Assembly: GCA_051313645.2 (NCBI GenBank) | Contig: JBNRSN020000013.1 | Coordinates: 3,906,001-3,970,000, forward strand | DNA from: Centroscyllium fabricii | Taxonomy: Eukaryota | Reading direction: 5' to 3' | DNA length: 64,000 bases | Part shown: piece by piece, positions 40,850 to 63,045 of the stretch | Layout: each line of letters starts with the position of its first letter | Position numbering within the stretch: the first letter of the stretch is position 1 | Position numbers and translations under genes: made by a program | The notes under the pieces: model-generated | Told to the model about the DNA's origin: nothing | Seen by the model: only the letters and a program-made list of their open reading frames with translations | Databases searched by the model: none

Positions 40850-40950
40850 TGGGGAGGTTCTCTGTCAAAGAGGTTGCTGTATGCAAATTAGCTGCCGCGT
40901 TTCCTACATTACAACAGTGACTACACTTCAAAAAGTATTTCACTGGCTGT
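40850..40950 (+). mobile_element. Deu-type SINE 3' fragment
   Basis: Reverse-complement similarity to 4080-4170. Confidence 0.55.
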
Positions 40951-41014
40951 ATTTGTGCCGGACGACTGAAGTTGCCGGCTTTTTAGTTGCCCGATTAATG
41001 ATGCTCAACCTGTA

Positions 41015-42306
41015 GTAAGATTGGGCAGAGTCACCTTGGATTTATGAAAGGGAAATCGTGGGTAACAAACCTATTGGAGTTCTTTGAGGATGTAACTAGT
41101 GGAGCAAACAAAGGGGAACCGGTAGATGTGCTGCATTTGGATTTTCAGAAGGCCTTCGATAAGGTCCCACACAAGAGGTTGGTGAACAAAATTTGGGCAC
41201 ATGGAATTGGGGGTAATATACTAGCCTGGATTGAGAATTAGTTAACAGACAGAAAACAAAGAGTAGGGATAAACTGGTCTTTTTCAGGATGGCAGGCTGT
41301 GACTAGTGGGGTACCGCAAGGATCGGTGTTTGGGCCCCAGCTGTTCACAATCTATATCAATGATTTGGATGAGGGGACTAAATGTAAAATTTCCAAATTT
41401 GCTGATGATACAAAGCTAAGTGTCAGTTGTAAAGAGGATGTGAAGAGGTTTCAAGGGGATCTCGACTGGCTCACTGAGTGGGCGAGAACATGGCAGATGG
41501 AATATAATGTGGATAAATGTGAAGTTATCCACTTTGGTAGAAAAACAGAAAGGCAGAGTATTTCCTAAATGGTGAAAGATTGGGGAATGCAGATGCTCAG
41601 TGACCTTGGTGTCCTTGTACATGAGTCACTGAAAGTGAATGTGTAGGTGCAGAAAGCGATTAGGAAGGAAAATGATATGCTGGCCCTCATTACAAGAGGA
41701 TTTGAGTATAGGAGTAAAGAAGTCTTACTCCAATTATATAAGGCCTTGGTGAGACCACACCTGGAGTACGGTGTACAATTTTAGTCTCCTTACCTAAGGA
41801 AGGATATACTTGCCATAAAGGGAATGCAATGAAGGTTCACGAGATTGATTTCTGGGATGGCAGGACTATGAGAAGAGATTGAGTAAACTAGGCCTGTATT
41901 CTCTTGAATTCAGAAGAATGAGAGGGATCTCATTGAAGCAGACAAAATTATTACAGGGCATGATAGGGTGGATACTGGGAGAATGTTTCCCTTGGCTGGG
42001 GAGTCTAGAACCAGAGGCCACAGCCTCAGGATAAAGGTAGGCCATTCACGACTGAGATGAGAAGAAATTTCTTCACACAGAGGGTGGTGAATCTTTGGAA
42101 TTCTCTACCCTAGAGGGCTGTGGAGGTTCAGTCATTGGGTATATTCAAAACAGACGTCGATAGATTTCTGACTAGTAAGGGCATCAAGGGATATGGCAAA
42201 AGGGCCAGTGAATGGAGTTGAGGCAGAAGATCAGCCATGATCTCATTGAATGGTGGAGCAGGCTCGAAGGGCTGAGTGGCCTACTCCTGCTCCTATTCCT
42301 TATGTC
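41015..42306 (+). mobile_element. 5'-truncated CR1 LINE
   Basis: LDFQKAFDKVPH, GVPQGSV and KFADDTK motifs; 3' tail CCTACTCCTGCTCCTATT. Confidence 0.93.
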
Positions 42307-42309
42307 GTT

Positions 42310-42480
42310 CTTTAAGACATTCCTTAAAACCGACCTCTTTGACCAAGCTTTTGGTCACCTGCCCTAATTTATCCTTATGTGGGTCGGTGTCTAATTTTTT
42401 GTCTTAAAATAATCCTGTGCAGCGCCTTGGGACATTTTACTACGTGAAGGCGCTATATATATATATACACAAGTTGTTGT
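42310..42480 (+). mobile_element. L2-like LINE 3' tail
   Basis: CTTAAAACCGACCTCTTTGACCAAGCTTTT...GCGCCTTGGGACATTTTACTACG..GGCGCTATAT. Confidence 0.6.
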
Positions 42481-43015
42481 TTTAGGGGCATTGAACATAA
42501 TGTTCGTTTGTGCAAGACACTAGTTAGGCCACCACTCCCATTGTTGGAAGGATAGCTTGAACCATTGAAAGGCTACAGCAAAGTTACATTAGGATAAAGG
42601 CAGGAGAGATTGGGGGACGGGAGGGATGGTGGTGCAGGGCAAAAGGAGATGGTAATGGGAAAACCTAAGAAATAAAATTTGACTGGTCCCATTGCCATCT
42701 CCTTTTGCCTTGCAGTATCATTGATTTTGTCTTTTAATCCCTTCTGGCTTCCATCCTATCACACACAGGCCTTCCCTTTTGTTCTTTCCTTCACCCACTC
42801 CCCTTTCCCGCCCACTCCCCTTTCCCACCCCCAGGCCCTTAGAGAATTAATTGTTTGAAGAGGAGAAGTATTAAAAGCTGTAGTGAGGAGGGTGGGCCAA
42901 TTGCCTCATATGGAGGAACTCAGACTTAATGGCCTGTTTAATTTCTGCAACCAAACAACTTTAGCAGTGAGAATTAACACTGTGCAGTTCAAAAGGCAGA
43001 AGTGCAATTATTTAT

Positions 43016-43220
43016 ATGATGTGGAGGTGCCGGTGTTGGATTGGGGTGGACAAATGCAGGACACCGGGTTGTGGTCCAACAGTTTTGTTTGGAGTCGCGG
43101 GCTTTCGGAGCGCTGCTCCTTCCTGAACTTCTCTTTCGCCTGGGGGGGGAGCGGCGCTCCGATCCGAAAGCTTGTGATTTGAAGTGGAAATGTTGGACTA
43201 TGGTCTGGTGTGTGACTTCT
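43016..43220. mobile_element. Miniature Penelope inverted-pLTR insertion, A-to-G hypermutated
   Basis: 13-bp TSD TGCAATTATTTAT (43003-43015 and 43221-43233); both arms align to the pLTR at 7201-7334. Confidence 0.85.
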
Positions 43221-43239
43221 TGCAATTATTTATGTGAAG

Positions 43240-43720
43240 ACTTCAGGAACTGTCTATTGTCTGCTGAGGGACAGGAAGCCGCCTGTTCGCAGTGTGTTGT
43301 GGGAGTTGTAGTTCAACTTCTGTCCAATCGGCTCCGAGCTCCTGGGGGGTGCGCCTGTCAACTACAACTCCCAGAACACACTGCGCGCACTCCTTACCCG
43401 TCATTGGAAACCGAGCATTACCTGTCGAGGGAGGCGGGCTACTCGTCACTTTACAAAACAAACAGCACAGCACAGCCTGGCCGAGCCGCCAATCAGTGCG
43501 AGCTGTGGGAAGCGGCCGCGCTTTTTCAATTCCCGCGCTGCCAACCGCCGTGAGCGAGGCCCCAGGGGCGGGCTGCCCGGGCCAACGCCTGTCGGGCCGT
43601 GTGTGAAATAGCTGGCCCGTTCGGTGCCGGGCTCGGGAGAGCAGTGCGGCCCAGGCCCAGGGGTGAGAGGGTTAACGCTCCGCCTTCTCACCCCTCCCCT
43701 CCCCTCTCATGACCAAATTA
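43240..43720. promoter_or_regulatory. CpG-rich promoter with two inverted ZNF143/THAP11-type motifs, CCAAT boxes and GC boxes
   Basis: AACTACAACTCCCA(G/C)AACACACTGCG at 43360-43385 (+) and 43288-43313 (-); CCAAT near 43324 and 43489; GGGGCGGG near 43565; candidate donor GG|GTGAGA at 43663. Confidence 0.75.
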
Positions 43721-44344
43721 ACACTGGGGGAATGAAATTTAAATTTTGCAAAGGAGAACGAGTCCTCCTCTTCTAGCCAGACCCGACAAAAGTTTTATAC
43801 GATGCCAAGGTAGCGGCGCGACTCCGGTTTACAGCGATTGCCCCAAACACACACAGCACAGGCGAGATACCGGGGCTGGGGGGTCACCCCCCTCATCCCA
43901 GCTACACCGTCAAATAAAGCGGATTGTGTCCCCTGGCCTAGTCGGCACTGGTTGTTAGTCGCTATTTCTCTTTCGCATCTGCCTCCCTTTTTGCAGATAA
44001 TTGAACTGAATCAGCTTTATTGCCGAGTGCATTAAATGTGCAAGGAGCTTAACCTGGTGACAATTCTGTCCACTTACAGAATACATCAAATCCACAAAAA
44101 AAGAAAAACAAAATACACCAAATACAAATTTTACAAAATTACCAGATATAATGTCAGGAATAGAGGGGTGGGGGGGAATTGCAAATATACAAGTTTACAA
44201 AATCTAGAGTAATTAGCATATCTACAATACTACTGAATAAATGGAGTAGTTAAAGAAGGTATCAGATGTAAAATCTGGTTAGAGGGGGGCAATCCACAAT
44301 TTCCTGAGGTCAGGGGTCCGGTAAGGAGGGAAAGGGATGGGAAG

Positions 44345-44513
44345 GTTTATCTGGTTTTTCGCCTCTCCCGGGTGATCACATGGGTCTGGGCGGGGTGGAG
44401 AGTTAAAATAAAATTGAGGTTGGGATCAGATCAGCCATGATCTTGTTGAATGGCGGAGCGGGCTCGAGGGGCCGATTGGCCTACTCCTGCTCCTATTTCT
44501 TATGTTCTTATGT
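44345..44513 (+). mobile_element. CR1 3'UTR fragment, same subfamily as 31453-31959
   Basis: Near-identical to the reverse complement of about 31453-31620. Confidence 0.85.
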
Positions 44514-44734
44514 TAAGGCTGCTACGGACCAGATGGATAGTTTGTAAGGACCAAGGCATGGCGGAAGAAACTGTTCAGATGATGGGTGGCAACCGAACGA
44601 TATTCCAAATGTTAGTGGCTGCAGTAAAGGCGCCCCTCGGATTAACAAGTCAATTTTCCGCTGTTTCCCCCCGTCCCACTGCAACCAAGTCAATTCATTA
44701 AATATTTCAGTCAATTAAATATATTCAAGAAGGA

Positions 44735-44841
44735 ATAACAACAGAAAATGCTGGAAATACTCAGCAGGCCAGGCAGCATCCGTGGAGAGAGAAACTGAAT
44801 CAACGTTTCGGGTTCTGGACCCCCGCAGTATTTTGCTATTG
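44735..44841. mobile_element. Short Penelope-type pLTR insertion (second family) in a CR1 fragment
   Basis: 13-bp TSD TATTCAAGAAGGA; GAAACGTT hammerhead remnant on the minus strand. Confidence 0.7.
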
Positions 44842-44919
44842 TATTCAAGAAGGAGTTGGATATATTTCTTAAGGCTAAAGGGATATGGGGAGAAGACAGG
44901 GACAGGGTACTTTTTTAAA

Positions 44920-45200
44920 ATTCATGATGGGATGTGGGCGTCGCTGGCTGGCTAGGCCTGCATTTAGTGCCCATCCCTAATTGCCCTTGAGAAGATGGTG
45001 GTGAGCCGCCTTCTTGAACCGCAGCAGTCCATATGGTGTAGGTACACCCACAATGTTGTTAGACATAGACATAGACATAGAAGATAGGAGCAGGAGTGGG
45101 CCATTCGGCCCTTCAAGCCTGCTGGAAGGGAGTTCCAGGATTTTGGCCCAGCGACAGTGAAGGAGCGGCGATACAGGTCCAAGTCAGGATGGTGTGTGGA
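44920..45200 (-). mobile_element. LINE 3' end (CR1/L2 group)
   Basis: RRSFTVAGPKSWNSLP ORF2 C-terminal remnant. Confidence 0.6.
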
Positions 45201-45207
45201 TTTGGAT

Positions 45208-45593
45208 TGACAGCAGAGGGTGCTGGGGGGGCTCGGCGGGCCGGGCAGCACCTGTGGAGAGAGAAACACTCAACCTTTCAGCTGTCCAGGCTCAATATCG
45301 AGTTCCAACAATTTCAGATAATAATCCCTGCCCCCATTTTTCATGCTGTATGATTTTGCCATTCCTGTCTGCTACATTTTCACAGCTTGTTCTTTCAATC
45401 CTTCCTCCCCTCCAAACCACACCCCCCTGTCACATCTCCAGCCTTTTTCAATTCCGATGAAGGCTCCCCGACCTGAAACGTTGAATCTGTTTCTCTCTCC
45501 GCGGGTGCTGCCTGGCCTGCTGAGTGTTTCCAGCATTTTCTGCTGTTACTTCAGATTTCTAGCATCAGCAGTATTTTGCTATTACAATACTGA
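45208..45593. mobile_element. Penelope-type inverted-pLTR insertion (second family), A-to-G hypermutated
   Basis: Inverted arms at about 45208-45268 and 45489-45550; hammerhead-like CCGATGAAGG...CCTGAAACGTT near 45454-45482; possible TSD ATTTGGAT. Confidence 0.7.
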
Positions 45594-45921
45594 ATTTGGA
45601 TGATCAGCCGCGATCTCATTGAATGGCGGAGCGGGCTCGAGGGGCTGAATGGCCTACTCCTATCTTTTATGTTTCTGTGCCACCGATCACCATCCCCAAG
45701 AAACAAAGATCCTTGTTTGTCCTCCCTCCACCGTCGTGTCACACAATGCATAACATCCGCACACGTGTTTGATAATTTTGCTAAATTTGATTCATGTGCT
45801 GGCTCGTTTTCGGATTGATTCCCCACCCCACCTATCCCATTGACCAGGAACAAAAATGGAAATTGCTGGAAATACACGGCAAAGTCAGTCAGCATCTGTA
45901 GAGACAATTAACAAGTTAGAT

Positions 45922-46620
45922 CAGCCCAGAATTTGCTGGAGAAGGGCATCTCATGGCGTGCCCAGTTAGGCTGGTTCCTGCAGCTCAATTTAGCAAAGTT
46001 TTGCCCACAAAGTTGCTGGAAGTGTGAGCTGATCCCAGCACAGTGATGGAAATAAGGCTTTTTTGACCCTAGTCAGCAGGGTATATATTCTTAACCAATG
46101 AGATTAAAGGATTGAAAAATAAACAGGACGGACTGGGAAGGAGGGTGAATTAGAGTGAGTGCATTCAATGTTAAATCAGGTACAGAAAGAGAAATAAAGA
46201 TCGGATTAAGAGATGAAAAAAGAGAGACAAAGGAAAAGTAAGACTTTTTAAATGACATTTTAAAAATCTAAAACAATCCACAACCTGGATCATTCACTTT
46301 CTGGGCAAGAGAGGTAGATTGGCAGTCATTAACAATGATCACATCATTAAAAGGGTACTTGCGATTAATTACTAGTTAACATTCTGTGGTGTGTTTAATG
46401 GGCAAATGCAGCAACTTCAGGAAAATCACGGTGAGGTTAAGGGAGAGATGCTGTTGTCGCGAAGCTAGGCGGTGCGGCACAAATCGTCCAGGAACTTGTG
46501 GCGATAGCGATTTGCAATTCACGGGGTAGCTTCCTTGCCACAGGTTGCTGGCTGATTTGCATATTAATAACGGCATGCGTCGTTCATACACCATTATATT
46601 TTTCAGCAAATTTGGGGCTG
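45922..46620. mobile_element. MITE with TIRs of about 17 bp inside another pLTR remnant
   Basis: CAGCCCAGAATTTGCTG versus CAGCAAATTTGGGGCTG. Confidence 0.7.
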
Positions 46621-46879
46621 TAAATATTTTGGGTGAGACCCTTCTTCAAAAACAGTCTTTTCAGCATTTTCTGTTTTTATTTCCAGTATCTGCAGTAATT
46701 TACTGTTTACCCAAATTGTCTAGTATTGTACCATGATTCTGCTTTAGAAGGCGATATGGGACAGTTGATTTTAAGGATATCCTGTTGTAGTAATGTGTAG
46801 ATTGCTGGTTTACATTCTAAAACGGCATCTAGTAGGCTGAGGGCGAGCTACAAAATATATCCGTCTAGAATATTCCATC

Positions 46880-47165
46880 TGTTGACTAGAATTATACCAG
46901 AAATGAGAGGTTATACCTATCAGGAAAGATTGAACAGGCTGGGTCTCTTTTCTCTCAAAGAGATGACTGAGGGGTGATTTGATTGAGGGCTTTAAGATTA
47001 TGAAAGGGTTTGATAGGTTATATGTAGAGAAGATGTTTTCACTTGTGGGCGAGACCAGAACTAGAGGCCATAAATATAAGATAATCACTAATAAATCCAA
47101 TCAGGAATTCAGGAGAAATGCCTTCACCCAGTGAGTGGTGAGAATGTGGAACTTGCTACCACACG
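46880..47165 (+). mobile_element. CR1 3' fragment
   Basis: Degenerate LRGDLIE and TRTRGHKYK motifs. Confidence 0.8.
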
Positions 47166-47485
47166 AGTAGATGAGGTCCAGGAAGCCCGGACAGCCATAG
47201 TTAAACCTGTAAAACAGGCTTAATCACAGGCTGCCCGCCTCATTCAAATATTTCAATTGCCAACCTGCCTCCTGGGAGCGATGCGCCGCCCACCCCCTGT
47301 CCCACCGCCGTTAAACTCAGAAGCGGGCAGGTTGGAGATGGGACGACATTTTTAAATCTTCACCTCTGACCTGACCCCAACCCGTCCGTTTTGGGTGTTA
47401 AAATCCAGCCCTTACTGTCTGGGCTCAGACACAGAGGATATTTGATCAGTAATTTCCAGTCTCTTTTCCCTTCTCTTTTTTACAG

Positions 47486-48195
47486 TGAATTTAGTGGCGA
47501 TTGTGATCCTGTCCCAAGGAAAGTGTGGGCTCGCCACCTGCACCACTTGCTACCTGGTGGGCAAGGCAGTGGCGGATCTCCTGGTCATTGTCACTGAGGT
47601 CATACTGAGGAAGATCAATTATCATCATTTCCCAGTGAGTTTACTGGACTTCACTGTGTGTAACATAGAAACATAGAAGATAGGAGCAGGAGTAGGCCAT
47701 TCGGCCCCTCGAGTCTGCTCTGTCATTCAATGAGATCATGGCTGATCATCCAAACTCAGTACCCTGTCCCTGCCTTGTCCCCATATCCCTCTCGAGCCTG
47801 CACCGACACATATCCCACCCTATCCCCGCAACCCCACATATTCAATCCCCCTAACACTAAGGGTCAATTTATCCTGGCCAATTAACCTAACCCGCACATC
47901 TTTGGACTGTGGGAGGAAACCGGAGCACCCGGAGGAAACCCACGCAGACACAGGGAGAATGTGCAAACTCCACACAGATAGTACCCGAGGCTGGATTTGA
48001 ACCCAGGTCTCCAGTGCTGTGAGGCAACAGTGCTAACCACTATGCCACCGTGCCGCCCCAGTGTAGCGTTCTCACTGTCCTAGTCAGTGCTGCCACAGAC
48101 TGTTCTGTCTGGTTCACCGTCACTTTCACCTTTAATCGATTTGTGGCCATTTGTTGCCAAAAGCTGAAATACCAAGAAAACTGCGGCTGTGGTTC
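47486..48195 (+). pseudogene. GPR139/GPR142-like class A GPCR exon fragment (TM1-TM3), split by a SINE and truncated beside an ERV LTR
   Basis: Polypyrimidine/AG acceptor, then NLVAIVILSQGKCGL...YLVGKAVADLLVIV and, after the SINE, CSVLTVLVSAATDCSVWFTVTFTFNRFVAICCQKLK. Confidence 0.75.
47662..48060 (-). mobile_element. Full-length HE1-like V-SINE
   Basis: tRNA-like A/B boxes, V-domain GCGTGGGTTTCCTCCGGGTGCTCCGGTTTCCTCCCAC, CR1-derived tail and (TTCTATGT)n end. Confidence 0.9.
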
Positions 48196-48210
48196 GGAGA
48201 GGGGGAGGGG

Positions 48211-48923
48211 TGTCGAAGTCTCGACCGTTCAAAAAGTAAGACTCTGAAACAAACTTATCGTCAAAGGTAAAATTTTATTAACAGTTAGTTTGCTAGCAAA
48301 CGGGAGCTCACGCAGTCAAAGTCTACGTTAAACTGCTCCGACTACATGGTCAAGAATCAGTATTTTTATACACAAAGATCAAAGCTTTCTACCATGTGAC
48401 ACGGTATTGAGACACAATTATTAACAAAATAAAACAAAAGACAGATGTGTAAGGGATGTCTTTAAGGTTATACAATGATGACTAAAAGGTCAGCAGGGCA
48501 TTATTATTATCCTAAGATAGCCTTGGTCTACAGATGACCAAAAAATCATGAGGCTGAAATACCTTAAGATAGGGTTAACTAATCTTATAAAGTGGAGACA
48601 GTTTGTCTCATCTTGGTTCTGGGCAATTATGAGAATTATGAGAATGTTTATGTTGACTCGTTTCTACAGTTTATCAGTCTTTGCTCTAATCTTCTTGAGG
48701 GTACTGTTTGGCCTTCAGGCCAAGCGAGTCATCTCCTTCCTCTTGCCATTCCCTAATATGGGCCTGCCTGTATTTCTTTGTCTTGTTTTAGCAAAGGTCA
48801 TTTTAACTGCTGAAATGCCAGACTCCATTTTAGTTTAGAAAATGAAATATGTGCTTATTTAATACTACTGTTAAATGTGGATATATATATATATAAAACT
48901 CTGTATGCAACTACACTTCTACA
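48211..48923 (-). mobile_element. ERV 3' LTR, 713 bp
   Basis: TGTAGAAGT...ACTTCGACA termini, preceded by PPT AAAATGGGGGAA; AATAAA near the end. Confidence 0.8.
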
Positions 48924-49222
48924 TTCCCCCATTTTTGTCCTTCCTGGGACAACCCAATCCTCAAAATTTGATCCTGCTTAGTCGGTCCACTTCCTCGAAA
49001 AAGGGCTTGTCCTGATCTTAAAGGGATTCCTCCTGTAGTATGAATAGGTATATGGGCGCGGACCCAACAACTAGATCTACCAGTGGCCCTAGCATGCTCG
49101 TAAGACATGTACAGGAAGGTGTTAACATGCAGTTCTCGTTTCTTTCGGAGATTGTTACTATCTCTCTGACCGTGTATGTGCATCATTTCACGAAGTACAC
49201 AAAGCAGAAACAGTAGCCTCAT
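48924..49222 (-). pseudogene. env: Truncated retroviral env N-terminus
   Basis: Hydrophobic signal-like start, RKKR, NTFL and CWV(R) (degenerate CWxC); located between integrase and PPT. Confidence 0.6.
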
Positions 49223-49224
49223 TA

Positions 49225-50650
49225 TTTAAAATGTCCTTGTCTGGTGACTTCTTGCAATGGCACGCCTGGATCCAAGTCGGTCTTTCCTTGATTTTAACAG
49301 CTGTGTTGGTCGTCAGGAGTACTTGATATGGTCCTTCAAAGCGGGGCTGTAGTCCGTTCTTTTTTTTTAAAGGCCTTTACATATACGTTGTCTCCTGGTT
49401 CCAAGCTGTGGCACTTTCCTTCTGCTGGTTCCGTTTGTGCTTCCTTTACCTGTTGGTGAAAACTGGAAATACATTTGGTTAATGCAATGCAATAATTCAA
49501 CATGTTTTCATCCATCTTATGGATGTCCATTTGCTTAATCGTAAGGGGCGCGGAAAATGGCAGTCTTAATGGTCGTCCCATAACAATCTCATGTGGCGAT
49601 AGTCCAGTTGTCCTGCTGGTTGCTGCTCACATTATCATCAATGCTAGGGGTAATAACTCGACCCATTTAAGTCCAGTCTCATGACAAAGTTTAGAAAGTT
49701 TATTCTTTAGTACCCCGTTGTATCTTTCTACCAATCCTGCCGACTGTGGGTGGTAGCTGCAGTGAAAATGTTGGTTGACCTGTAAAGCTTTGCATAGTTC
49801 TTTTATAATAGTTCCAGTAAAGTGTGATCCGTTATCACATGAAAGTTGTGTCGGTATTCCGAACCTTGGTATGACTTCTTTCAATAAACATTTCGCAACT
49901 GTTACAGCATCATTTTTCTTACATGGAAAAGCTTCTACCCATCTTGAAAACATGTCTACAATTACTAATACATATTTAAATCCGAGACAGGCAGGCAATT
50001 CAATAAAATCCATTTGCAAGTTTACAAAAGGGCCTGTTGAATTTGGGTGGGAGGCAGCCTGTACTTTCTCTGTTTTGCCTGGATTCATTTCTTGGCAAGT
50101 GGTGCACCTTTCGCTAATTTGTTTTACAATAGTCGTAATCCCTGGTGCATACTATGTCTGATTAATATAGTCTGCCATCCCCCCTTTGCCCGCATGCGTG
50201 AACATGTGAACGCATCAGGCAATCCACGGTAGCAAAGATTTAGGAGCCACTATGCGGCCATCATGGTGAACCCATACCCCGTCGGGTGTTTTTAAACAGC
50301 AATCCTTTGCCCAACCTAACACTTCGTCCTAATCAGCCTGTGACTGAAAGGCTAAAACATCATTAAAAGAAGGTGGGTCATTATCTGATTTCTGCTGACA
50401 CAGCGCCAAGACTGATACTTCTGGTCCTGTCGTCGACAGTGCTGCTGCCTTAGCAGCTTTGTCTGCCCGACCGTTACCCAGTGATATCTCATCCTGACTA
50501 CCTGTATGAGCCTGACACTTTATAACTGAAATTTTAGCGGGGCACATCAGAGCTCTCAGAAGATTGTCAATTTGTTCGGCATTTTTAATGGTTGATCCTT
50601 AAGAAGTAAGGAAGCCCCTTAACTTCCAAATCTGTCCATAATCATGGGTG
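49225..50650 (-). pseudogene. pol: Class I (gamma/epsilon-like) ERV pol: RNase H and integrase
   Basis: KCQAHT..GNGRAD, LQMDFIEL, VDMFSRWVEAFP, CDNGSHF and YHPQSAGLVER motifs; several stops. Confidence 0.9.
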
Positions 50651-51030
50651 AGGGGGGCAGGGGTCGGTGGAAGGGGTTGGACGATGAGTAGAGCTTGGTG
50701 GGGGGGCCGGGTGAAAGCATTCCGGAGGCCCAGGAACCCCGGCCAGTCGTAGTTAAACCTGTAAAACAGGTTAAATCAGACAACGACAAGGATGTTGCTG
50801 GTGGGGGATTCGACAATGCCCATACAATTGAATGTCAAGGGGAAGTGATTGGACTCTCTCTTCTTGGAGATAGTTATTGCTTGGGACTTGCGTGGCATGA
50901 ATGTTATTTGCAATTTATCAGTACAAGCCTAACAACCAACTAATTCATTGTTATCCTCATCAGAGGAGAAATAAGTGGGGTCTATTTGGGGTTAAAGTTC
51001 CTGCAAAATATGTCATGCCTTTTGATGGAA

Positions 51031-51990
51031 CTCTTTTATTTAAAACCAATTACAAAAACTCCATTACTTAAAACATTCACAAAAGAAAAGAAAACCCCCA
51101 CATTACCGCTCTTGAGCCGCGGCAAACTCCCAAGACCCAATGCCCACAAGGTAGGGGTCAAAGTTTCAAGTCCTTATGCCCACAAGGCAGGAGTAAAAGT
51201 CACAAGCCCTCATGCCCACAAGGCAGGGGTTACGACCACAAGTCCTCATGGCCGCAGGCAGGGGTCCAAACTCGCCAAGCTTCCTGGTCGTCGTCGCCCA
51301 CCCATCCGGACAGCGGGTCTCCGGGAAAACACACAGACGAGGGTCGGCGCTCCCAGCGGATGGCTGGTGCAGATCCGGCAGTCTCCGGTTGACATTCTAC
51401 TCCATCCGCAGGGCCCTCCGCATCGCCGAGCGGATCCTCCCAATCTCCTGGACAAGCGGACTGAAAGGAAACTCAAAAACACTTGATTAACATTATCACA
51501 TTAAACCAAGATCACCCCGGCCGGGGTGACGATGCACTCCAGTCCCCGCGGCGCCCACCGGTCCCGAAAGACTTCGAGCGTGCCGGCGGACGCCGCGTGC
51601 TCCATCTCCAGGGCCACCCGGGCGCGAACATAGCCGCGGAAGAGAGGCAGGCAATGGGGCCGAACCACCCCCTCGACTGCCCTCTGCCTGGACCTGTTAA
51701 TGGCCACCTTAGGCAGGCTCAGAAGCAGTCCCACGAGGAGGTCCCCCGACCTGACCTCTCCCCTCCGCACCAGGTGGCCGTAGATCAGGAGCGTGGGGCT
51801 GAAGTGCAGCCAAAAGTTGAGGAGCAGCCCATTCAAATAATGGAACAGGGGGTGCAACCTTTCACACTCACTGTAGATGTGGAACACGGACTGCTCCAGG
51901 CCGCAAAAACAGCACTCAGCCTGGGAACCCGTGAACCTGCTGAATAACTTATTGCACGGGACTGTTCCGTGCAACACCCTCCATGCCAAT
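51031..51990 (-). mobile_element. Tx1/L1-clade non-LTR retrotransposon 3' end
   Basis: WRVLHG...CCFCG..SVFHIYSEC zinc-binding ORF2 C-terminus; 3'UTR with about 35-bp tandem repeats and AATAAA. Confidence 0.85.
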
Positions 51991-52029
51991 TTCAGAAGCA
52001 AGTGAACTCTCTGGCAGACTTAGTAACCC

Positions 52030-52260
52030 AACACTAAAAAATAATTTCAAAAGCTAATGGAATGTTGGCCCTTACCTCAAAGGGGCTGGAATACAAAGGG
52101 GTGGGAGTTACATTCCAGCTGTGCAGAGCTCTGGCCAGACCACATCTGTAGAACTGCACCCAATTCTGGGCACCACATCTCAGGAGCGATATATTGGCCT
52201 TGGAGGGGGTGCAGCACAGAGTCACCAGAATGATACAGCGCTAAAAGGGTTAAAATATTA
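52030..52260 (+). mobile_element. CR1 3' fragment
   Basis: LARPHL*NCTQFWAP..LALEGVQHR remnant. Confidence 0.75.
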
Positions 52261-52269
52261 GAACTGGTT

Positions 52270-55235
52270 GCACAAAGGCATGGCATGGCACCTCAGTCCC
52301 ATTGAATGCTCATCCTGCGCCACATGGGAAGTCCAGGATGCTTCTCGTGTTGTGGACAACTGCAGGTGCAGGAAGTGCCGTCAGCTGGAGGAGCTCGAGC
52401 CCCGGGTTTCGGAGCTTGAGCAGCAGCTGGCGTCACTACGGTGCATCCACGAGGCTGAGAGCTACGTGGAGAGCACGATTGAGGAGGTGGTCACCCCGCA
52501 GCTTAAGAGCTTGCAGGCAGAGAGGGAATAGGTGAGCGCCAGATAGACAAGGAAGACCAGACAAGTAGTGGAGGAGTCCCCTGAGTGCCCTCTAAATGAT
52601 ATTCAGTTCTGAATATTGTGAGGGCGATTATTCCTCTGGGAAGTACAGCCAGAGCCAAGGCCATGGCACTATGGGTGGTTCAGCTGTACATGGGGCAAGG
52701 AGGAAGGTCAGAAAAGCATTAGTTACAGGGGGTTCAATATTTAGTGGAACCGACAGGCGTTTCTGCGGCTGCAGACGTGACTGCGGGATGGTACGTTGCC
52801 TTCCTGGTGCCAGGGCCCGGGATGTCACTAAGCGGCTGCAGGATATGCTGAGAGGGGTGGGTGAACAGCCAGAGGTCGTGGTCCATATCGGTACCAATGA
52901 CAAAGAGGGATGAATTCCTGCAGGCAGATTTTAGGGAGCTAGGAAAGAGATTAATAAGCAGGACCTCAAAGATAGTAATCTGCGGATTCCCAGTGCCACG
53001 TGCTAGTGAGCACAGGAACAGGAGGATAAAGCAGATGAATGTGTGGCTGGAGAGGTGGAGCAGGAGGGAGGGCTTTAGATTCCTGAGGCATTGGGATCGG
53101 GTCTTGGGGAGGGAGGACGTGCACAAGCCAGATGGGTTGCACCTCAACAGGGCTCGGATGAATATCCTTGTGGTGTGGGGGCGGGGGGCTTTAATTGTGC
53201 TGTTGGCGAGGGTTTAAACTGGCTTGGTGGGGGATGGGAACCTGAGAGTAGATTCAGAAGGGAGAGAAGTGAAGCTGGAAATGGAAGGCAGAAAATTAGT
53301 ATGGAAGGCAGAGATAACAAAGGCTAGAAAATAGACAACAAGGGTTTTGGCAGTGCTTAATGGTATATTCTTCAATGCAAGGAGTCTAGTGAATAAGGCA
53401 GATGAGCTGAGGGCACAGATAGACACGTGGAAGTCTGATATTATAGCTATTACTGAAACATGGCTGAAAGAAGGGCAGGAATGGCAGCTCAACATTCCTG
53501 GTTACAGGGTTTTCAGACGAGATAGAGAGGGGGATAAAAAAGGAGGGGTGGCTGCAATATTGGTTAAAGAAACAATTACAGTTTTGAGGAGGGTTGATAG
53601 AAGGATCATCAAAGTAGCTCATATGGGTTGAACTGAAGAACAACAAAGGGACAATCGCACTGCTGGGAGTGAACTATAGAGCCCACAATAGTCAGAGGGA
53701 GATAGAAGAGCAAATAGGTAGGCAAATTTCTGAGAAGTGCAAAAACAATAGGGCAGCAATAGTTGGGGATTTCAACTACCCTACTATTAACTGGGATAGA
53801 ATCAGTGTAAAAGAGGGTGCAGAATTCTTAAAATGCATTCAGGAGAACTTTTTTAGCCAGTATGTAGCAAGCCCAACAAGAGAGGCAACAGTTCTGGACT
53901 TGGTTTGAAGGAATGAAGCTGGGCAGGTGGGAGGTGTATCAGTGGGAGACCATTTTGGTGGCAGTGATCATAATTCAGTTAAATTTAGCGTAGTTATTTA
54001 AAAGAACAAAGATGGACCAGGAGTAAAATTTCTCAATTTGGGGAAAGGCCAATTTTACTAAACTGAGATGTGATTTAGCAAAAGTGGACTGGAAACAGCT
54101 ATTTGAAGGTGCATCAGCGTCAGAACAGTGGGGGGGTATTCAAGGAGGAGATAGTGAGGGCTCAGAGCAAAAATGTCCCCACAAAGAAAAAGGGTAGGAC
54201 TCTCAAATCTAGAGCCCCCTAGATGTTAAGGGGTATACAGGGTAGGATAAAGCAAAAAAGGAAAGCTTATGTCAGATACCAAGCGCTAAATACAGGTTGA
54301 ACACCATTAATCCGGCAGGGTCAGGACCAGCACCCTGCCAAATTGTTGAAAACGCCGAATGATTGAAGCTTCGGCGGCGCATGCGCAGATCATTCAAAAT
54401 GGCAGCCGCAAAATTTTGAATGGTCTGCGCATGCGTTTGCCGTTCAGCGGCACATGCGCAGATCATTCGCCGAAGCATCAATCGTCAAGGGCTAACAAGG
54501 CAAGGGAATACACAATAAATGGAGAAGTACAGAGGGACCTTGAAGTGCATGTCCACAGATCCCTGAAGGTAGCAGGACAGGTAGATAAGGTGGTTAAGGA
54601 GGCATATGGGATACTTTCCTTTATTAGTCGAAGCTTTGAATATAAGAGCAGGGAGGTTATGCTTGAACTGTATAAAATGCTAGTTAGACCACAGCTAGAG
54701 TACTGTGCACAGTTCTGGTCACCACACTACAGGAAGGATGTGATTGTAGTAGAAAGGGTACGGAAGAGATTTATAAGGACGTTAATAGGACTGTTGAATT
54801 TTAGCTATGAGGAAAGATTGGATAGTCAGGTGTTGCTTTCTTTGGAACAGAGGAGGCTGAGGGGCGACTTAACTGAGGTGTATAACATTCTGAGGGGCCA
54901 AGATAGGGTGGATAAGAAACATCTATTTCCCTTAGCAGAGATCTCAATAACCAGGGGCATAGATTTAAAGTAATTGGTAGAAGGATCAGAGGGGTGTTGA
55001 GGACTGTTTTCACCCAGAATGTGGTGGGGGTCTGAAACTCACTGCCTGAAAGGGTGGTCATGGCAGAAACCCTCATCACATTTAAAAAGTACTTGGAGAT
55101 GTACTTGAAGTGCCGTAACCTGCAGGACTACGGACCAAGAGCTGGAAAGTGGGATTAGGCTGTGTAGCTCTTTTTCGTCCGGCACAGATATGATGGGGCG
55201 AATGGCCTCCTGTGCCATAAGTTTCTATGATTCTC
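52270..55235 (+). mobile_element. Long degraded CR1 LINE: ORF1 (zinc finger and SGNH esterase), APE endonuclease, internal deletion, 3' end
   Basis: CLPGA, VVHIGTND and DGLHLN (esterase); NARSL, ITETW and GDFN (APE); LVRPQLEYC and RRLRGDL. Confidence 0.9.
54293..54490. mobile_element. Possible Tigger/pogo-like MITE end at the CR1 deletion junction
   Basis: Starts TA|CAGGTTGA and contains repeated GCGCATGCG motifs; no second TIR seen. Confidence 0.35.
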
Positions 55236-55952
55236 TGGGACTAGGCTTGCATTCCATTGAGATTAGAAGATTAAGGGTTGATCTATGCTGGCGTGGATTT
55301 GTACTCTAAAGGTGAAGCAATTATGGGCCGGGAGGGTGGACCATCTATGGGGGAGTCAGATTCATTTGTCAGAACCTCTCCATTAGGAACAGACTCGAGC
55401 ATTTGACGAGTATGTCTGGTGCACAGAGCTGGATTTGAGCTCAGGCTCATGTATCCAGGGCTCGGTTGCCTTCCAGGACTGGGCTGTGGGAGGAACAACC
55501 TCAAATTCTGCACATCCACCTTCCAATGGAATATGGTGCGTGTCCACGCAGCGGGCAATGATGGAGGCAGGGATTTTATATCAGTTAAAATGCTCATCAT
55601 GCTGCCTGGGGGGAGAGCCTGGGATCTGCTGACCCTCTAATGTATGCTACATGAGTATAAGAGGGAGGACAACGTGAACCAACCTGTTCTCCCAGTTGCA
55701 CATCTCCCACTGCCTCTGATATCTGCTTGCCCAGAATTGTGAGGGCTTCTTTTTTTTCAGAAGCACTTAGAGAAATTCCTCTGCCTTTCATTAAAAGTGA
55801 CTTTCTGGTACAAGAAAGTAAACTAGTATGATATGTAGCTGGCTGCCATGACATTTTCTCACACATAGCTGGCAGTAAGCAAGCTGCTAATGGGCTGAGA
55901 TTAATGGTACAAATCATGAGAGGTTTGCAGTGCATTCAGTCATGGAAGGTTA

Positions 55953-56190
55953 CATAGAAACATTGAAACATAGAAGATAGGAGCAGGAGTAGGCCATTCG
56001 GCCCTTCGAGCCTGCTCCGCCATTCAATGAGATCATGGCTGATCATCCAAACCCAGCACCCCGCCCCTGCCCTCCCCCCATATCCCTATCGAGCCTGCAC
56101 CGACACGTATCCCACCCTATCCCCGTAACCCCACATATTCAACCCCCCTAACACTAAGGGTCAATTTATCATGGCCAATCAACCTAACCC
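55953..56190 (-). mobile_element. 5'-truncated HE1-like SINE
   Basis: Near-identical to 47662-47893. Confidence 0.88.
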
Positions 56191-56623
56191 GTTACGAGGG
56201 AAGGTGATGTTGGAAGTGAAGGAAAGGGGTGCGAATGGTCATGCAGCACCTCCTGTGCATTGCTGGTTAACTCACCGATAATTAATTACCTGTGATGAAG
56301 CTTATTCCCATCCACTGGATCTACAAGGACACTTTTTCAATTTGGGGATGACCCTTTTATGTTGCTGCAGCTCTTTAAATGCTGCAGCAGATTACAATTT
56401 CTTGCTTCCCCTCCTTCAACACCTCTTAATGGGAGCCCGACCACAATAAACAAATGAGAATGAATGCAATGGTAGCTGATGCAGGAGGTCCTGCCCAGTC
56501 ACACATCTAGTATTGAATCCGTCCATTGGGAACTCCATTGGTCAGAACAGGATTGCTATTTATTTCATAATAAATGAGGAAAAATTAAGAATAAACATAC
56601 TTACAAATTAAGAATAAACATAT

Positions 56624-59600
56624 TTACGACAAGAATCTCTCAGCACAATCTGAAACACGTGGAGAAGGATCGGTGAGTCTGTCGAGTTGAGTTGGATCGT
56701 CACGCTGGATCCTTAAACAGCAGAGTTTCTCTATCCATGTCCTCCTCCGGGCAGGAATCTGAGAAAGGACGACTGATAAGAAGACCGCATCCCCTCGGAG
56801 ACGAGGCCCCATGTGTAGGAAGGACGTGCAGCACTTTTTATACGAGTTGATGCTCCTGGGGAAATCTTTGATGAGCTGTAACGAAAGGACGTTCAAAAAT
56901 GTCTCATACTTCAGGCTGCCTTCCCGTGAATAATCCTGAATTATTCCACAAACCCTCGTTGAGCCGATATATGGGGCGACCGAGCACAATGTTAAAAGAC
57001 AGGCCCTCTGGACCTCCTCACTTTCTTCGTCCAGGTGTAGCAACAAACTGACCAGGTTCAGGTGGATCTCTTCCATAAAGGAAGCCCTTGAATGTTCATG
57101 TCCACATTTGGCCAAAGTGCCAAACACAGTAAATGCGGCAGCACGAACCTGAGTGGATTTGAACTCAAAGCAACATCGAATTCCTTTTGCGATATCAATA
57201 CAAAAGGGTCTGATAGCATTGATACTCAGCTGGTCCAAGTGCTTTGCGAGAGTTGATGTCACTTCAATCATGAATTCCTCCTCGTGGTACTCCTTGTTCT
57301 GCAGTATGTTACTCATTGCAGCCAACAGGTCTGAGGCATGTCTCTCCATCACTCCAGGAACTCCAATTGGAATATTCCCCAGGCCTCGAACACAGAGCAA
57401 CCTGACAGCCAGAGTCAAATCAAGTAGACCTGTGAGCAAACTATTCACCAGGATGTTAGTGAGCTGTGCATGGGAGGTCAATGAACATTTTAAAAGTTCA
57501 GCAAAGAAGGCAGCCACAGTGACTTTCTGGCCCTCCTGTGCAGTTGACAGGACAGATGCAAGATCCACCACAATCCCAGTCAGCTGGTGCTCATTGAATA
57601 AGCTCATCGCTCTAGCGAGCAGAGCCATCCCCTTGTGGTAGGTGTGCGGGTCCAACATCAAATCCCAGCCTCCCTTCTCCTGGACAAAATCTACAACCAC
57701 TTCATTGTGCGCTCTATTCAGCATGGCCCTGAGTGTCTTCACTGAGCACAGGCAAAGCTCTCGGCTTTTGCACACTGGTGTTGCTGATCGATTTTCTGAC
57801 CGCTCCAATTCACAGCAAGGAATAAAGTCAAAAGGCAAATTCATGTAGATACAAGAACTGAGATGATTTAATAAAGCAGCGAATAGCTCTGAATACAAGG
57901 TGTTAACAGCCTCTGCAGACTCTGGCTCTGAGACCATCTCGTACAGAGCGCTTATAACAGCCAGAGGATCAGGGCTCTCATCCTCTGTCACTGAATGGCT
58001 CCTTTCATTCAATGGCACTGATCTGTTCATGTATTGCATCAGTTGTTTCAATAATGAAAAAGCCAGTTGGGTCTTCTTTGCTACTGAGTGCCAGATGGCA
58101 ATGGTGCGCTCGTCCACGGGGAACCTGAGGAGACAACGCACAACAGCTGGCAGGTGCTGGGAAGTGAGGAGAGTGAAGGTTTCTAGCACAGTCAGTGTCA
58201 CTTCCTTTTGCGTGATTGCCGGCATTTGAAGGTGCAGCCCCTCGAGGGTCTCTGCGAGCTGATCCTCCAGCTCAGAGCCACGTCTCATAACGACAGCTTT
58301 CATTATAATAGCAGCTGTATTGGAACAGCTGGGGTGGTGGTCAACCAGTCCTTTGAAGAGCATAAAGAGCAGGTTGGCCAGCTGGTCCTGGGGCACGTGC
58401 TTGGAAATGAGATCTGCGAGCTCGGAGCACCCTTGAAAGAGGACTGTGGTGTCTGTGCTCGCCAATCGTTGGCCAATTCCTTTCAGAACCTGTTCCTGCT
58501 CCGTTTGCTCATCCAGATTCAAACCTTCATAACATGCCTGGATCTTCAGTAGGATGTGCAAACTGTCCATTGCCCTCTGCCGTATGGGGAGCAAGGGGTC
58601 AACACATCGTGGCAGCAGCTGACCAACTACAGCCCCCAAGTCAATCGGTTCCATTATAGTTTCTACATTAAGCTCCTGCCAATAGAATGTCAGCAGCTTA
58701 GAGGTCACATCTACTGCTCGCTCTCTTTCATAACCCCGTGGTGATATCATCCACTTCTCCAAATATTTGCGTATTGTCTGGAGACCCTCAGGGGAAAAGT
58801 TCTGGAGCAAAACTTGTTTGAGGAGACTGTATAGAGCAGCCATACTTTCTGTGTAAAGAGTCTCTCCTCCTCCTGGGTTAACAAGTGTCCCATCCTGAGC
58901 CTGGTTGGGGTCCACAGGAACCAAACTGAAAATACTCCTCAAGCAGCTTTGAATTAACTGGCAGTTATCAGCTTCATTTAACCGTGGGTTGAGTTGGACA
59001 AGATGAAGGCAGGCATTCATTGCCAACTGCCGAATAGGAGTCTGCAGCAGCTCTGTTTGCTCAGCCTCGATAAGTTGTTGCATGTACTTCAGTAGCTCAC
59101 TTTTTCTGCTGAAATTCAAGGGGAATGTCCGACTGCTGGACTGCACTGCTCTGGCTATCAGAGTCACGGTCTTCATCAGGCTCAAGGTCAGAGTCAAGTC
59201 CATGGATTCTTCCTTCACCCCCTGTCCAAGCTGGCTGAGTTGGTCACTTAACACTGGCAGAATGTGGTTCTCTATTCGGGATAAACAAAGGTCCGGTGGA
59301 GCATTGATTGCCAGATACCCATAGCTAAGAACCAATGTGCTCTTAACATCATCCACCTCAAGATCAGACTCATCCTTACGAACACGGAGGAAAGTTCTGG
59401 ACTTCTTCAGGAGGTTTAAGTTATTATAATCCACGAGGCTGCTAAAGGTGGTTTCAAAGTTAATGATAGAACAGAAACCAATTCCAACAGCCACACCCTC
59501 TCTCTCAACAGTCTCCCTGTGCTGAGCACTCTGGAGCATTTGTTCAATCTCCTTCTTTATGTCTGCGCTCTCTGAGTGATGTAGCACCATCCCAAGGCAT

Positions 59601-61558: not shown

Positions 61559-61599
61559 TCTTGGGTTCTCGGTAGATTTGTCTGCAATTTGTAATCTCA

Positions 61600-61870
61600 C
61601 TAGAGCAGGGGTATAAGGACAGAAGAAAAGACCATTTGATGCATTGACTTTAGCTCCAGAAAACCAGCTCCCCCAGCCTAGCAACTGTATGGTGAACTCC
61701 TCCAATATCCTGAATTCATCCCCTTACCTCTGGATCATTCCAAATGGTGATCACTGAGTTAGAAATGCACTTTTCATTCATTTTAATGAGGTCTCTTTTT
61801 CTTCACGTGGCATGACAGGACTCAGTGTAATATGTAGGGTTCACCTTCTCTGTGCCAATGATTGGCTTTC
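61600..61870 (-). promoter_or_regulatory. Predicted 5'UTR intron (61727-61600) and upstream promoter motifs of the MROH1-like gene
   Basis: Donor GAG|GTAAGG; acceptor CTTTTCTTCTGTCCTTATACCCCTGCTCTAG|; E-box CACGTG near 61804; palindromic GCCAATGATTGGC near 61854-61866. Confidence 0.55.
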
Positions 61871-62074
61871 TTTTCTATCAATGTTTTGCATCAGTTACAA
61901 AGTCTGGTGTGTGATGGACGTGTACTAGACCCAAGGTGTCTTTCTGTGTAGTGGTGGACATCTCATGAGATGACATGTTGGGTGAGGTGGGGTAATGGTG
62001 GAGGTGGTGTGACTGAAGGTGTTGATGTCGTACAGCAAGTAGTTTCTGAATGAAGTGAGAGATTGAATTTGTGT

Positions 62075-62550
62075 AGGTGTGAGATTGAAGATGGTCAGTG
62101 ATGGGGAATGTGGTGTGTCTGAGAGTACGGGAGCGGTGTGTGAGATTGGAGATGGTCAGTGATGGGGAATGTGGTTTGTCTGAGAGTATGGGTGTGGTAA
62201 CCCATATTGTATATACGATTACCACTGTAATATTGTCGCCAACATTGGCTTTGTATGATACACCGCTTTGCAAAACTGTCGTGGAGCCAGGTCAGCCACA
62301 CCTCTAACTCCTCCTCCAGGTGAGGCCTTTATAGGTGAGGACTGACCGGGGCTCCCTCATTCTGTTCTGATGTTCGTTCGGAGGGTAGCTCCAAAGTAAG
62401 TTAATAAAAGCCTATAGTTAAGGTCACTACTCGTGTAGTCTTTTATTAAGACAATTGACGATACGTCAATGGGAGTGGTGTGTGAGATTGGAGATGGTGA
62501 GTGATGGGGAATGTGGTTTGTCTGAGAGTACGGGAGTGGTGTGCGATTGC
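62075..62550. repeat. Tandem repeat of about 60 bp, interrupted by a solo LTR
   Basis: Repeated GTGTGAGATTGGAGATGGTCAGTGATGGGGAATGTGGT.TGTCTGAGAGTA.GGGAG. Confidence 0.85.
62193..62468 (+). mobile_element. Solo LTR, C-like family
   Basis: TGTGGTAACC...GATACGTCA, 276 bp, TSD ATGGG. Confidence 0.95.
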
Positions 62551-63045
62551 AGATTCTCCAATATGAGTGGTATTTAGGCCCCAGCCCACCAGTTTTTCTG
62601 GTTCTCCATTGATGTACCCAGTGGAAATTGAGGTAAGGTGGCCTGGTCTGTCACCTACAGCCAATATAGTGGACGACACACACCCTGTTAGAATTGTGCA
62701 CATGCTTCCTGCCCAACATTTTGGGGACTTAGGGGGCTATGTAGTGCCTGAAAAACATGGGCCATGCATCCCAATTTCAAGAACAAAATCACCTAGTATA
62801 AATAGTTAAGAACTTTGATCTCCTAGATCCCCTGTGATCCTGAATTTAAACACCCCTATCCCTGTGCTCCAGGACCCCCATTTCTCCTGAAATTAGACAG
62901 CCCTGCTCGCGCTGCTGGAAGCTAGGACCTTCTCTCACTGCTCCCAACCCTTAGAGTTTTCAGACCCTCCCCAGCCTCTCCAGACCCTCCCCAGTGCCTC
63001 CAGCCCCTCCTCAATGCCTCCAGCCCCTCCCCAGCCCCTCCCCAA

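What the first reader, a model, noticed from the sequence alone, without database searches (positions are those of the whole stretch)
43016..43220. Genomic fossil of an A-to-I hyperedited hairpin
Seen: against the pLTR at 6342/7334, this inverted-repeat insertion has about 10 A-to-G changes in each arm, all on the + strand although the arms are oppositely oriented, and no T-to-C (for example AAATCACAAG to GAGTCGCGGG, and AAATAAAA to AAGTGGAA). Over the 49-nt stem, 15 of 17 arm-versus-arm mismatches are G-U wobbles in a + strand RNA and none is A-C. The unpaired 5' extension keeps its As. Known: ADAR converts A to I in long dsRNA and reverse transcription fixes I as G. Inference: an edited hairpin transcript was reverse-transcribed into the genome (13-bp TSD), destroying its hammerhead core. 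Alternatives are GC-biased conversion near the CpG island (should be strand-symmetric), selection for an RNA-only hairpin, or RNA reads used in assembly polishing.
Basis: partly seen in the sequence, partly recalled or inferred. Interest (0 to 1): 0.8.

Follow-up and report, generated by a model that had tools for sequence, protein, structure and literature searches.

The report
ADAR-edited hairpin inside giant retrocopy
A small DNA hairpin carries 20 A-to-G changes and no other substitution relative to its closest unedited sister copy, likely because the RNA-editing enzyme ADAR rewrote a 27-kb transcript that a LINE retrotransposon likely copied back into the genome, and many other loci in this genome show the same scar.

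Summary
The locus is a Penelope-like inverted (hairpin) insertion. All 23 paralogous loci examined carry the insertion's left arm at the same site unedited, so the 13-bp TSD is older than the edits. Against the closest paralog, 20 of 20 substitutions in the stem are + strand A>G (10 per arm), and the tail has none. Two neighbouring hairpins are edited on the same strand. All lie in a 27.2-kb segment (40951 to 4.2 kb past the window) that starts abruptly, ends in a LINE 3' tail and splits a SINE: likely a giant LINE-primed 5' transduction of an unspliced RNA that carried a CpG island and an open 1699-codon MROH frame. It is not a one-off. Two patterns gave 134 and 78 double-A>G copies against 10 controls. 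Edits keep to paired stems, avoid 5' G and follow the strand of downstream LINE pieces (51 of 61). In one 15-copy staggered retro-family all 13 stem-bearing copies are edited, in 12 distinct patterns. No read-level proof for this locus. New variant of known ADAR proviral hypermutation and 5' transduction.

The parts
40951..64000 (+). 27.2-kb insert, likely a LINE-primed 5' transduction; runs past the window to G000:C335:3,974,160 (window-equivalent 68160), where it ends in a ~750-bp 5'-truncated LINE 3' end with a tandem 8-nt tail
   Evidence: abrupt left edge shared against two paralogs that continue upstream; right edge at the LINE tail; flanks are two halves of one SINE (5 of 5 other SINE copies contiguous, 1-nt overlap)
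40871..40950 (+). left half of the SINE split by the insert (target site)
42600..42750 (+). second hairpin; 10 A>G at 42612-42694, all at As paired in the paralog
   Evidence: 10 of 43 paired As, 0 of 12 unpaired
43003..43015 (+). left copy of the 13-bp TSD of the old Penelope-like insertion (shared with unedited paralogs)
43017..43058 (-). Penelope-like 'tail' extension outside the long stem; unedited (0 of 8 As)
43059..43124 (-). left arm (element antisense on +): A>G at 43059, 43066, 43071, 43073, 43087, 43092, 43094, 43097, 43099, 43100; 10-nt deletion at 43061; 62-nt deletion of inner stem and loop at 43124
43125..43224 (+). right arm (element sense): A>G at 43138, 43143, 43146, 43147, 43153, 43184, 43186, 43187, 43202, 43203; 5-nt duplication at 43158; 3-nt deletion at 43209
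43136..43178 (+). minimal hammerhead-like motif; two core As (43143, 43146) changed to G (core recognised by eye from the recalled consensus; no Rfam match)
   Evidence: Rfam 0 hits; motif type as in PMC4209133 passages
43221..43233 (+). right copy of the 13-bp TSD (overlaps the last 4 nt of the element)
43300..43700 (.). GC-rich, CpG-rich promoter-like region carried inside the insert
   Evidence: promoter role inferred
45200..45640 (+). third edited region: inverted repeat pairs with 13 A>G at 45209-45243 and 5 more at 45483-45639
56624..61723 (-). intron-free open frame of 1699 codons, MROH/Maestro HEAT-repeat family, carried antisense; open at the same length in both paralogs

Best explanation
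The hairpin is an old Penelope-like inverted insertion whose 20 A-to-G changes were likely made by ADAR on a long, unspliced + strand transcript of a paralogous locus, and a CR1/L2-type LINE reverse transcriptase likely primed on a LINE tail at the end of that RNA and copied about 27 kb of it into a SINE at this site. Shown: the unedited ancestral state in paralogs, the one-strand A>G spectrum confined to paired stems, three co-edited hairpins, and the insert's two ends. Inferred: the enzyme (ADAR), the transcript, a single continuous reverse transcription through the middle 22 kb, and the LINE clade. The hairpin has no function of its own here; it is a passenger that recorded its passage through double-stranded RNA. 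Editing came before the 62-nt inner deletion, because 43138 was paired only in the longer ancestral stem.
For: 20 of 20 substitutions in the stem are A>G on +; 23 paralogs, 42 arms, hold only 6 A>G and 1 T>C in all. Changes private to this copy against two agreeing paralogs: 55 A>G to 5 T>C in 40.9-45.9 kb, 10 to 15 in 45.9-67 kb (Fisher p 1e-6); the unedited part has no close, near-perfect inverted repeat. Insert ends: abrupt 5' edge, LINE 3' end with tandem tail, SINE split with a 1-nt overlap. Genome-wide: 134 sense and 78 antisense double-A>G matches against 10 for a double-transversion control and 134,694 unedited. In 45 hairpins edited in both arms: 426 of 1162 and 380 of 860 paired As edited, against 16 of 150 and 6 of 198 in tails and 1 of 38 and 5 of 97 in loop-side overhangs. 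Edit rate by 5' neighbour over 127 arms: T 0.70, A 0.64, C 0.44, G 0.31 (p 3e-22). A LINE piece within 500 nt downstream lies on the edited strand in 51 of 61 edited loci, against 9 of 23 unedited. Family F1: 15 loci with staggered 5' ends, 13 ending in a LINE tail; 13 of 13 stem-bearing copies edited on one strand in 12 patterns, including 6 of 6 not found through edits.
Against: No raw read confirms the edited letters at this locus. The middle 22 kb carries no editing signal, so its RNA origin rests on collinearity with two RNA-marked ends; a 77%-identical inverted LINE pair at 63.0/67.5 kb shows no A>G excess. 27 kb is very long for target-primed reverse transcription (own knowledge), and no transcript was observed. 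The 3' G preference is weak (G 0.57, A 0.57, T 0.51, C 0.46). 11 of 56 edited hairpins are edited in one arm only, and 10 of 61 loci have the downstream LINE piece on the opposite strand; this model does not directly explain those. The exact source locus is not fixed: C335:38.65 Mb has the terminal LINE, while C767 lacks it at the collinear place. No unedited source of family F1 was among its 15 loci.
Confidence: 0.8

Rival explanations
1. The segment arrived wholly or partly as DNA (duplication, or a switch from the LINE RNA to genomic DNA), and the edits were written in by RNA-templated repair or cDNA gene conversion over about 42.6-45.6 kb.
For: All edits sit in the 5'-most 4.7 kb. Edits keep to the present-day pairing and both hairpin polarities occur, 18 to 22, which in-place conversion would also give. 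One-arm-edited hairpins exist (11 of 56).
Against: The edited tract lies at the truncated 5' edge of an insert whose other end is a LINE tail in a split SINE. The rest has no good hairpin to edit. Family F1 and the LINE-strand bias show the plain retrotransposition route works in this genome. 23 paralogs that stayed in place are unedited.
Confidence: 0.12
2. The edited hairpin alone was retrotransposed by the Penelope-like enzyme and made the 13-bp TSD.
For: The TSD directly flanks the hairpin; the junction and 5-nt duplication are unique in the genome.
Against: The same site and flanks with unedited arms occur in 23 of 23 paralogs examined; the unique junction is a 62-nt deletion from the paralog form; two other hairpins 0.4 and 2 kb away are co-edited.
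Confidence: 0.02
3. Assembly or polishing artefact, DNA-level deamination (for example ADAR on the DNA strand of an RNA:DNA hybrid), or GC-biased conversion.
For: No read-level confirmation for this locus. ADAR can edit DNA in hybrids in model substrates (PMC12925331 passage).
Against: One-strand A>G with 0 of 20 other changes excludes symmetric GC bias. Hybrid deamination predicts edits in tails and overhangs, which are largely spared. Duplicated loci share identical edit patterns (L262/L263, L123/L124). An independent public run holds a contig exact over the edited 43061-43090 with a different flank, so edited copies exist outside this assembly. The insert has coherent biological ends.
Confidence: 0.04

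Closest known systems
ADAR A-to-G hypermutation recorded in retroviral DNA (Rous-associated virus U3; avian leukosis virus inverted repeat; Felder 1994, Hajjar and Linial 1995, seen only as cited in PMC12925331)
   Same: Nearly half of the As in an inverted repeat changed to G and fixed by reverse transcription; here 20 of 42 paired As.
   Different: Those are retroviruses. Here the record sits in a host genome assembly, in non-viral passenger hairpins moved by a LINE, at many loci.
APOBEC 'DNA editing' of retrotransposons fixed in vertebrate genomes (PMC4866542, PMC2873906; passages)
   Same: Clustered, one-strand hypermutation of a retroelement copy fixed in the genome.
   Different: G>A on cDNA of LTR elements, with no pairing rule. 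The screen in PMC4866542 selected G-to-A over A-to-G and the word ADAR does not occur in its main text. Here the change is A>G, bound to RNA stems, in non-LTR cargo.
Hyper-edited RNA clusters in repeats (PMC4365171, PMC5625713; passages)
   Same: Dense A>G in dsRNA of inverted repeats with 5' G depletion; also reported in elephant shark brain RNA.
   Different: Those are RNA-versus-genome differences; here the edits are in the genome. The 3' G enrichment is weak here.
5' transduction by SVA and L1 elements (recalled; my searches did not retrieve a paper)
   Same: An upstream read-through RNA ending in a retroelement 3' end is copied to a new site with 5' truncation.
   Different: About 27 kb, no splice removal seen, a truncated LINE 3' end used in trans, a CpG island and a whole antisense ORF carried, and RNA origin marked by editing scars.
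Penelope/Poseidon-like elements with inverted 5'-truncated copies and a 30-40 nt tail (PMC11167929 first half of text, PMC8557442 passages)
   Same: Inverted arms, tail on one end, TSD, GIY-YIG in family copies, hammerhead-like motif.
   Different: This explains the hairpin's origin only; editing is not part of it in the text I read.

Membership tests
ADAR hyperediting signature | A>G only, on one strand | tested here: met
   20 of 20; 55 to 5 over 40.9-45.9 kb
ADAR hyperediting signature | confined to paired RNA | tested here: met
   20 of 42 paired vs 0 of 8 tail As; 37-44% paired vs 3-11% unpaired in 45 hairpins
ADAR hyperediting signature | depletion of 5' G | tested here: met
   114 of 369 after G vs 230 of 327 after T, 127 arms; this hairpin alone 3 of 11 vs 5 of 6
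ADAR hyperediting signature | enrichment of 3' G | tested here: inconclusive
   G 0.57, A 0.57, T 0.51, C 0.46 pooled; 7 of 11 in this hairpin
ADAR hyperediting signature | edited RNA observed; dependence on ADAR | not testable with these tools
   needs RNA reads of the source paralog and enzyme loss
LINE-mediated 5' transduction | 3' end at a LINE tail | tested here: met
   LINE ORF C-terminus 67408-68049 (window-equivalent), then a tandem tail ending at 68160; a 90%-identical relative has an RT domain
LINE-mediated 5' transduction | 5' truncation within source sequence | tested here: met
   two paralogs continue with the same sequence upstream of 40951; the window does not
LINE-mediated 5' transduction | clean insertion into a target, with short or no TSD | tested here: met
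   SINE halves contiguous with 1-nt overlap in 5 of 5 other copies
LINE-mediated 5' transduction | RNA origin of the whole cargo (intron loss or edits throughout) | tested here: inconclusive
   edits only in the 5' 4.7 kb; the large gaps against paralogs are not GT-AG introns
LINE-mediated 5' transduction | LINE clade (CR1 or L2) | not tested
   label recalled from tail and ORF appearance; no tree built
Penelope-like element | GIY-YIG endonuclease in family copies | tested here: met
   PF01541 at 6810-6986, 23.0 bits vs cut-off 22.6; longer open frame in L019
Penelope-like element | inverted truncated copy with tail on one end and TSD | tested here: met
Penelope-like element | minimal hammerhead in the terminal repeat | tested here: inconclusive
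   core seen by eye; Rfam gave no match
Penelope-like element | PLE-clade reverse transcriptase | not tested
   no full-length copy examined

The most novel reading that the evidence does not exclude
In this 7.2-Gb genome, LINE reverse transcriptase routinely writes ADAR-hyperedited RNA into the germline at hundreds of loci and can copy unspliced transcripts of 27 kb with promoter region and whole gene. Editing scars would then be a general label of passage through RNA, showing that some apparent segmental duplications and gene-family expansions are giant retrocopies, and a fossil record of germline ADAR activity.
Probability: 0.6. Interest if true: 0.85.

Novelty: new variant of a known kind. 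Interest (0 to 1): 0.74.

Why it matters
Whether A-to-I edits ever become heritable DNA changes is an open, argued question (PMC10209271 passages). Here the unedited ancestor, the edited copy and the likely vehicle lie in one genome, and one family repeats the experiment 12 times independently. The scars also give a sequence-only test for RNA origin of intron-free duplicated DNA: without them this 27-kb block, 99% identical to its paralogs, would be filed as a segmental duplication. They report ADAR activity and neighbour preference in germline or early-embryo RNA, and they weaken DNA palindromes (predicted DNA hairpin energy -125 to -40 kcal/mol, partly through the deletions).

Tried and rejected
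Public runs: 12 listed, none holding half of the sampled words; no RNA holder listed. Six runs laid in two calls: contigs cover both junctions of the hairpin insertion, but the flank is multi-copy and their alleles (such as a 7-nt insertion) fit paralogs, so they say nothing on this locus; no listed contig spans the edited interior, and a hole proves nothing. My first reading of these as an unedited ortholog was dropped. Search for a parent hairpin with the same junction or 5-nt duplication: 1 match each, the locus itself. A second shared-flank set (222 matches, 30 examined) proved to be independent insertions at a LINE hotspot, 1 of 30 hyperedited. Twin priming on edited sense RNA was rejected because it predicts T>C in the left arm. 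A template jump across a longer duplex was rejected as the general rule because overhangs are spared. Rfam: no hit. Intron loss: not seen. Literature searches for genome-fixed ADAR editing through LINEs or Penelope-like elements returned no such report in listings; the library lacks most subscription journals, the term with a prime sign could not be searched as written, Hajjar and Linial 1995 is not held, and no supplements were read.

Full report
Observation. The window is G000:C335:3,906,001-3,970,000 of a 7.2-Gb assembly; its repeats recall a shark, which is an untested impression. At 43017-43224 lies an inverted repeat flanked by a 13-bp direct repeat. It is made of two 3' ends of a Penelope-like element: the family carries a GIY-YIG fragment, one arm has the roughly 40-nt tail and the other lacks it, the layout described for these elements (PMC8557442 passages; PMC11167929 parts 1-2 of 4). 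Such hairpins are common: of 30 loci returned by a search with this one, most were unedited hairpins, each with its own junction, and 5 including the query were A>G-rich.

The true ancestor. The left flank has 28 matches in the genome, the locus included. I examined 23 of the 27 others. All 23 carry the left arm at the same site; their 42 arms hold 6 A>G and 1 T>C in all. Against the closest one (C767:69.098 Mb), 43059-43226 differs by 20 substitutions, all A>G on +, 10 per arm, plus deletions of 10, 62 and 3 nt and a 5-nt duplication; the tail is unchanged. On the paralog's fold, 20 of 42 paired As became G and 0 of 8 tail As. The TSD therefore predates the edits, which refutes the idea that the edited hairpin inserted by itself. 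Position 43138 was paired only in the longer ancestral stem, so editing came before the 62-nt deletion (inference).

The unit that moved. Two more + strand A>G clusters lie at 42612-42694 and 45209-45243, both in hairpins. Counting only changes private to this copy against two agreeing paralogs (23,904 positions), A>G to T>C is 55 to 5 in 40.9-45.9 kb and 10 to 15 beyond, where no close near-perfect inverted repeat exists. Homology to both paralogs starts abruptly at 40951, while they continue with the same sequence upstream. It runs, about 99% identical over its longest blocks, to window-equivalent 68160, where it ends in a 5'-truncated LINE end with a tandem 8-nt tail. The sequences left of 40951 and right of 68160 are two halves of one SINE, contiguous with a 1-nt overlap in 5 of 5 other copies found. 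These are the marks of LINE target-primed reverse transcription with 5' transduction (established knowledge; the CR1/L2 label is recalled). The edited strand is the LINE's sense strand. The cargo includes a CpG-rich region at 43.3-43.7 kb and an intron-free 1699-codon MROH/Maestro frame on the opposite strand, open in both paralogs too. No gap against the paralogs looks like a spliced intron, so RNA origin of the middle 22 kb is inferred, not shown.

Generality. A 27-letter family motif occurs 134,694 times unedited. Forcing two A>G gave 134 sense-strand and 78 antisense-strand matches; forcing two transversions at the same sense sites gave 10. Some of the 134 have only the two forced changes and may be chance. 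I fetched a subset of these matches; after dropping 17 redundant edited loci, 126 remained (122 from the two patterns, 4). With the forced columns left out, 56 compact hairpins had at least 5 edits in one arm: 45 in both arms, 11 in one. Edits numbered 981 on the majority strand and 42 on the other. Paired As were edited at 37% (426 of 1162) and 44% (380 of 860), tails at 16 of 150 and 6 of 198, loop-side overhangs at 1 of 38 and 5 of 97; tail-first and tail-last polarities were 18 and 22. Over 127 arms the edit rate by 5' neighbour was T 0.70, A 0.64, C 0.44, G 0.31, matching the 5' G depletion of ADAR (PMC4365171 passages); the 3' G preference was weak. Of 90 edited loci, 61 had a LINE piece within 500 nt downstream, on the edited strand in 51; of 65 unedited loci 23 had one, 9 on the element's sense strand. 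Of 20 loci refetched at 9.9 kb because no edited partner had been seen or the structure was unclear, two showed a distant partner edited on the same strand and most showed none, as expected of 5'-truncated copies.

A natural replicate. Family F1 has 15 loci with staggered 5' ends; 13 end in a LINE tail. Its longest member reaches an HTH_psq coding piece. All 13 copies that keep stem sequence are edited on the carrier's sense strand, in 12 distinct patterns; 7 were first found through their edits, and the 6 that were not are all edited. Two truncated members keep an edited arm without its partner. One A>G shared by 10 of 11 left arms may belong to the source. Upstream carrier sequence shows no excess (7 of 1004 As, 9 rows), downstream sequence does (97 of 1246, 12 rows). 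A contrasting set of independent insertions at one LINE hotspot is edited in 1 of 30.

Mechanism. Likely order: Penelope-like hairpin insertion; duplication of the region at DNA level into more than 20 paralogs; + strand read-through transcription of one paralog to a LINE 3' end; ADAR editing of its three hairpins; reverse transcription in trans from the LINE tail into a SINE, stopping 27.2 kb upstream. The loss of two hammerhead-core As is real but likely incidental, since the motif sits inside a long duplex in a truncated copy. Rivals are in-place RNA-templated conversion (0.12), artefact or DNA-level deamination (0.04) and autonomous hairpin insertion (0.02). Public runs did not settle this locus; one contig matches the edited 43061-43090 exactly with another flank, which shows that edited copies exist outside this assembly.

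Comparison. ADAR hypermutation fixed by reverse transcription is known for avian retroviruses (review passage), and APOBEC G>A editing is known in genomic LTR elements. Eight searches of the held library showed no report of genome-fixed ADAR scars carried by LINEs; coverage is limited and 5' transduction papers are recalled only. Two unchecked notes of this scan describe A>G-rich L1 and proviral copies in other genomes; they are leads, not support. Verdict: a real feature, a new variant of known kinds, interest 0.74.

Noticed in passing
window 56624-61723 (-): Intron-free 1699-codon MROH/Maestro HEAT-repeat frame, open at the same length in two paralogs; the region's left flank has 28 matches, mostly on three large contigs, which suggests an expanded intron-free gene family.
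   Followed up: partly
L253-L267 (family F1): A non-autonomous composite of an HTH_psq (LCOR-like, label recalled) coding piece, a Penelope-like hairpin, a SINE-like part and a LINE tail, copied to 15 loci; source locus not found.
   Followed up: partly
L268-L297: 222 matches to one junction between the Penelope-like tail and one site in a LINE ORF end; the 30 examined differ in arm length and junction, so this looks like a sequence-specific insertion hotspot.
   Followed up: partly
L349-L373: 27 LINE 3' UTR copies match a hyperedited pattern; 11 of 25 examined have an inverted partner within the locus, 10 of them with G-U far above A-C. No control pattern was run.
   Followed up: partly
L127:1442-1861, L146:1164-1562, L054:1462-1905, L139:1469-1765: Hairpins with one arm heavily edited and the adjacent arm unedited; unexplained (later conversion or a template switch are possible).
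   Followed up: no
L139, L141, L142, L149, L150, L219: One edited copy amplified with its flanks; its 27-letter match recurs at about 17 loci.
   Followed up: no
L156:379-967: An arm with 85 of 140 scored As changed over about 590 nt and no partner for most of it within 4 kb.
   Followed up: partly
window 43296-43375: Two inverted copies of a motif that recalls the ZNF143/Staf site, plus CCAAT boxes, at the edge of the CpG-rich region (recalled motifs, untested).
   Followed up: no
window 49627-50151 (-): Integrase (rve) fragment of an LTR-type element inside the insert.
   Followed up: no
window 10222-14068 and 34351-36828: Two elements with about 250-nt direct terminal repeats in opposite orientation, 90-94% alike; further LTR-like repeats with 45-nt arrays at 15.2-23.8 kb.
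   Followed up: no
window 44342-44514: A 173-nt repeat present in this copy and absent from the C767 paralog, likely a later insertion.
   Followed up: no
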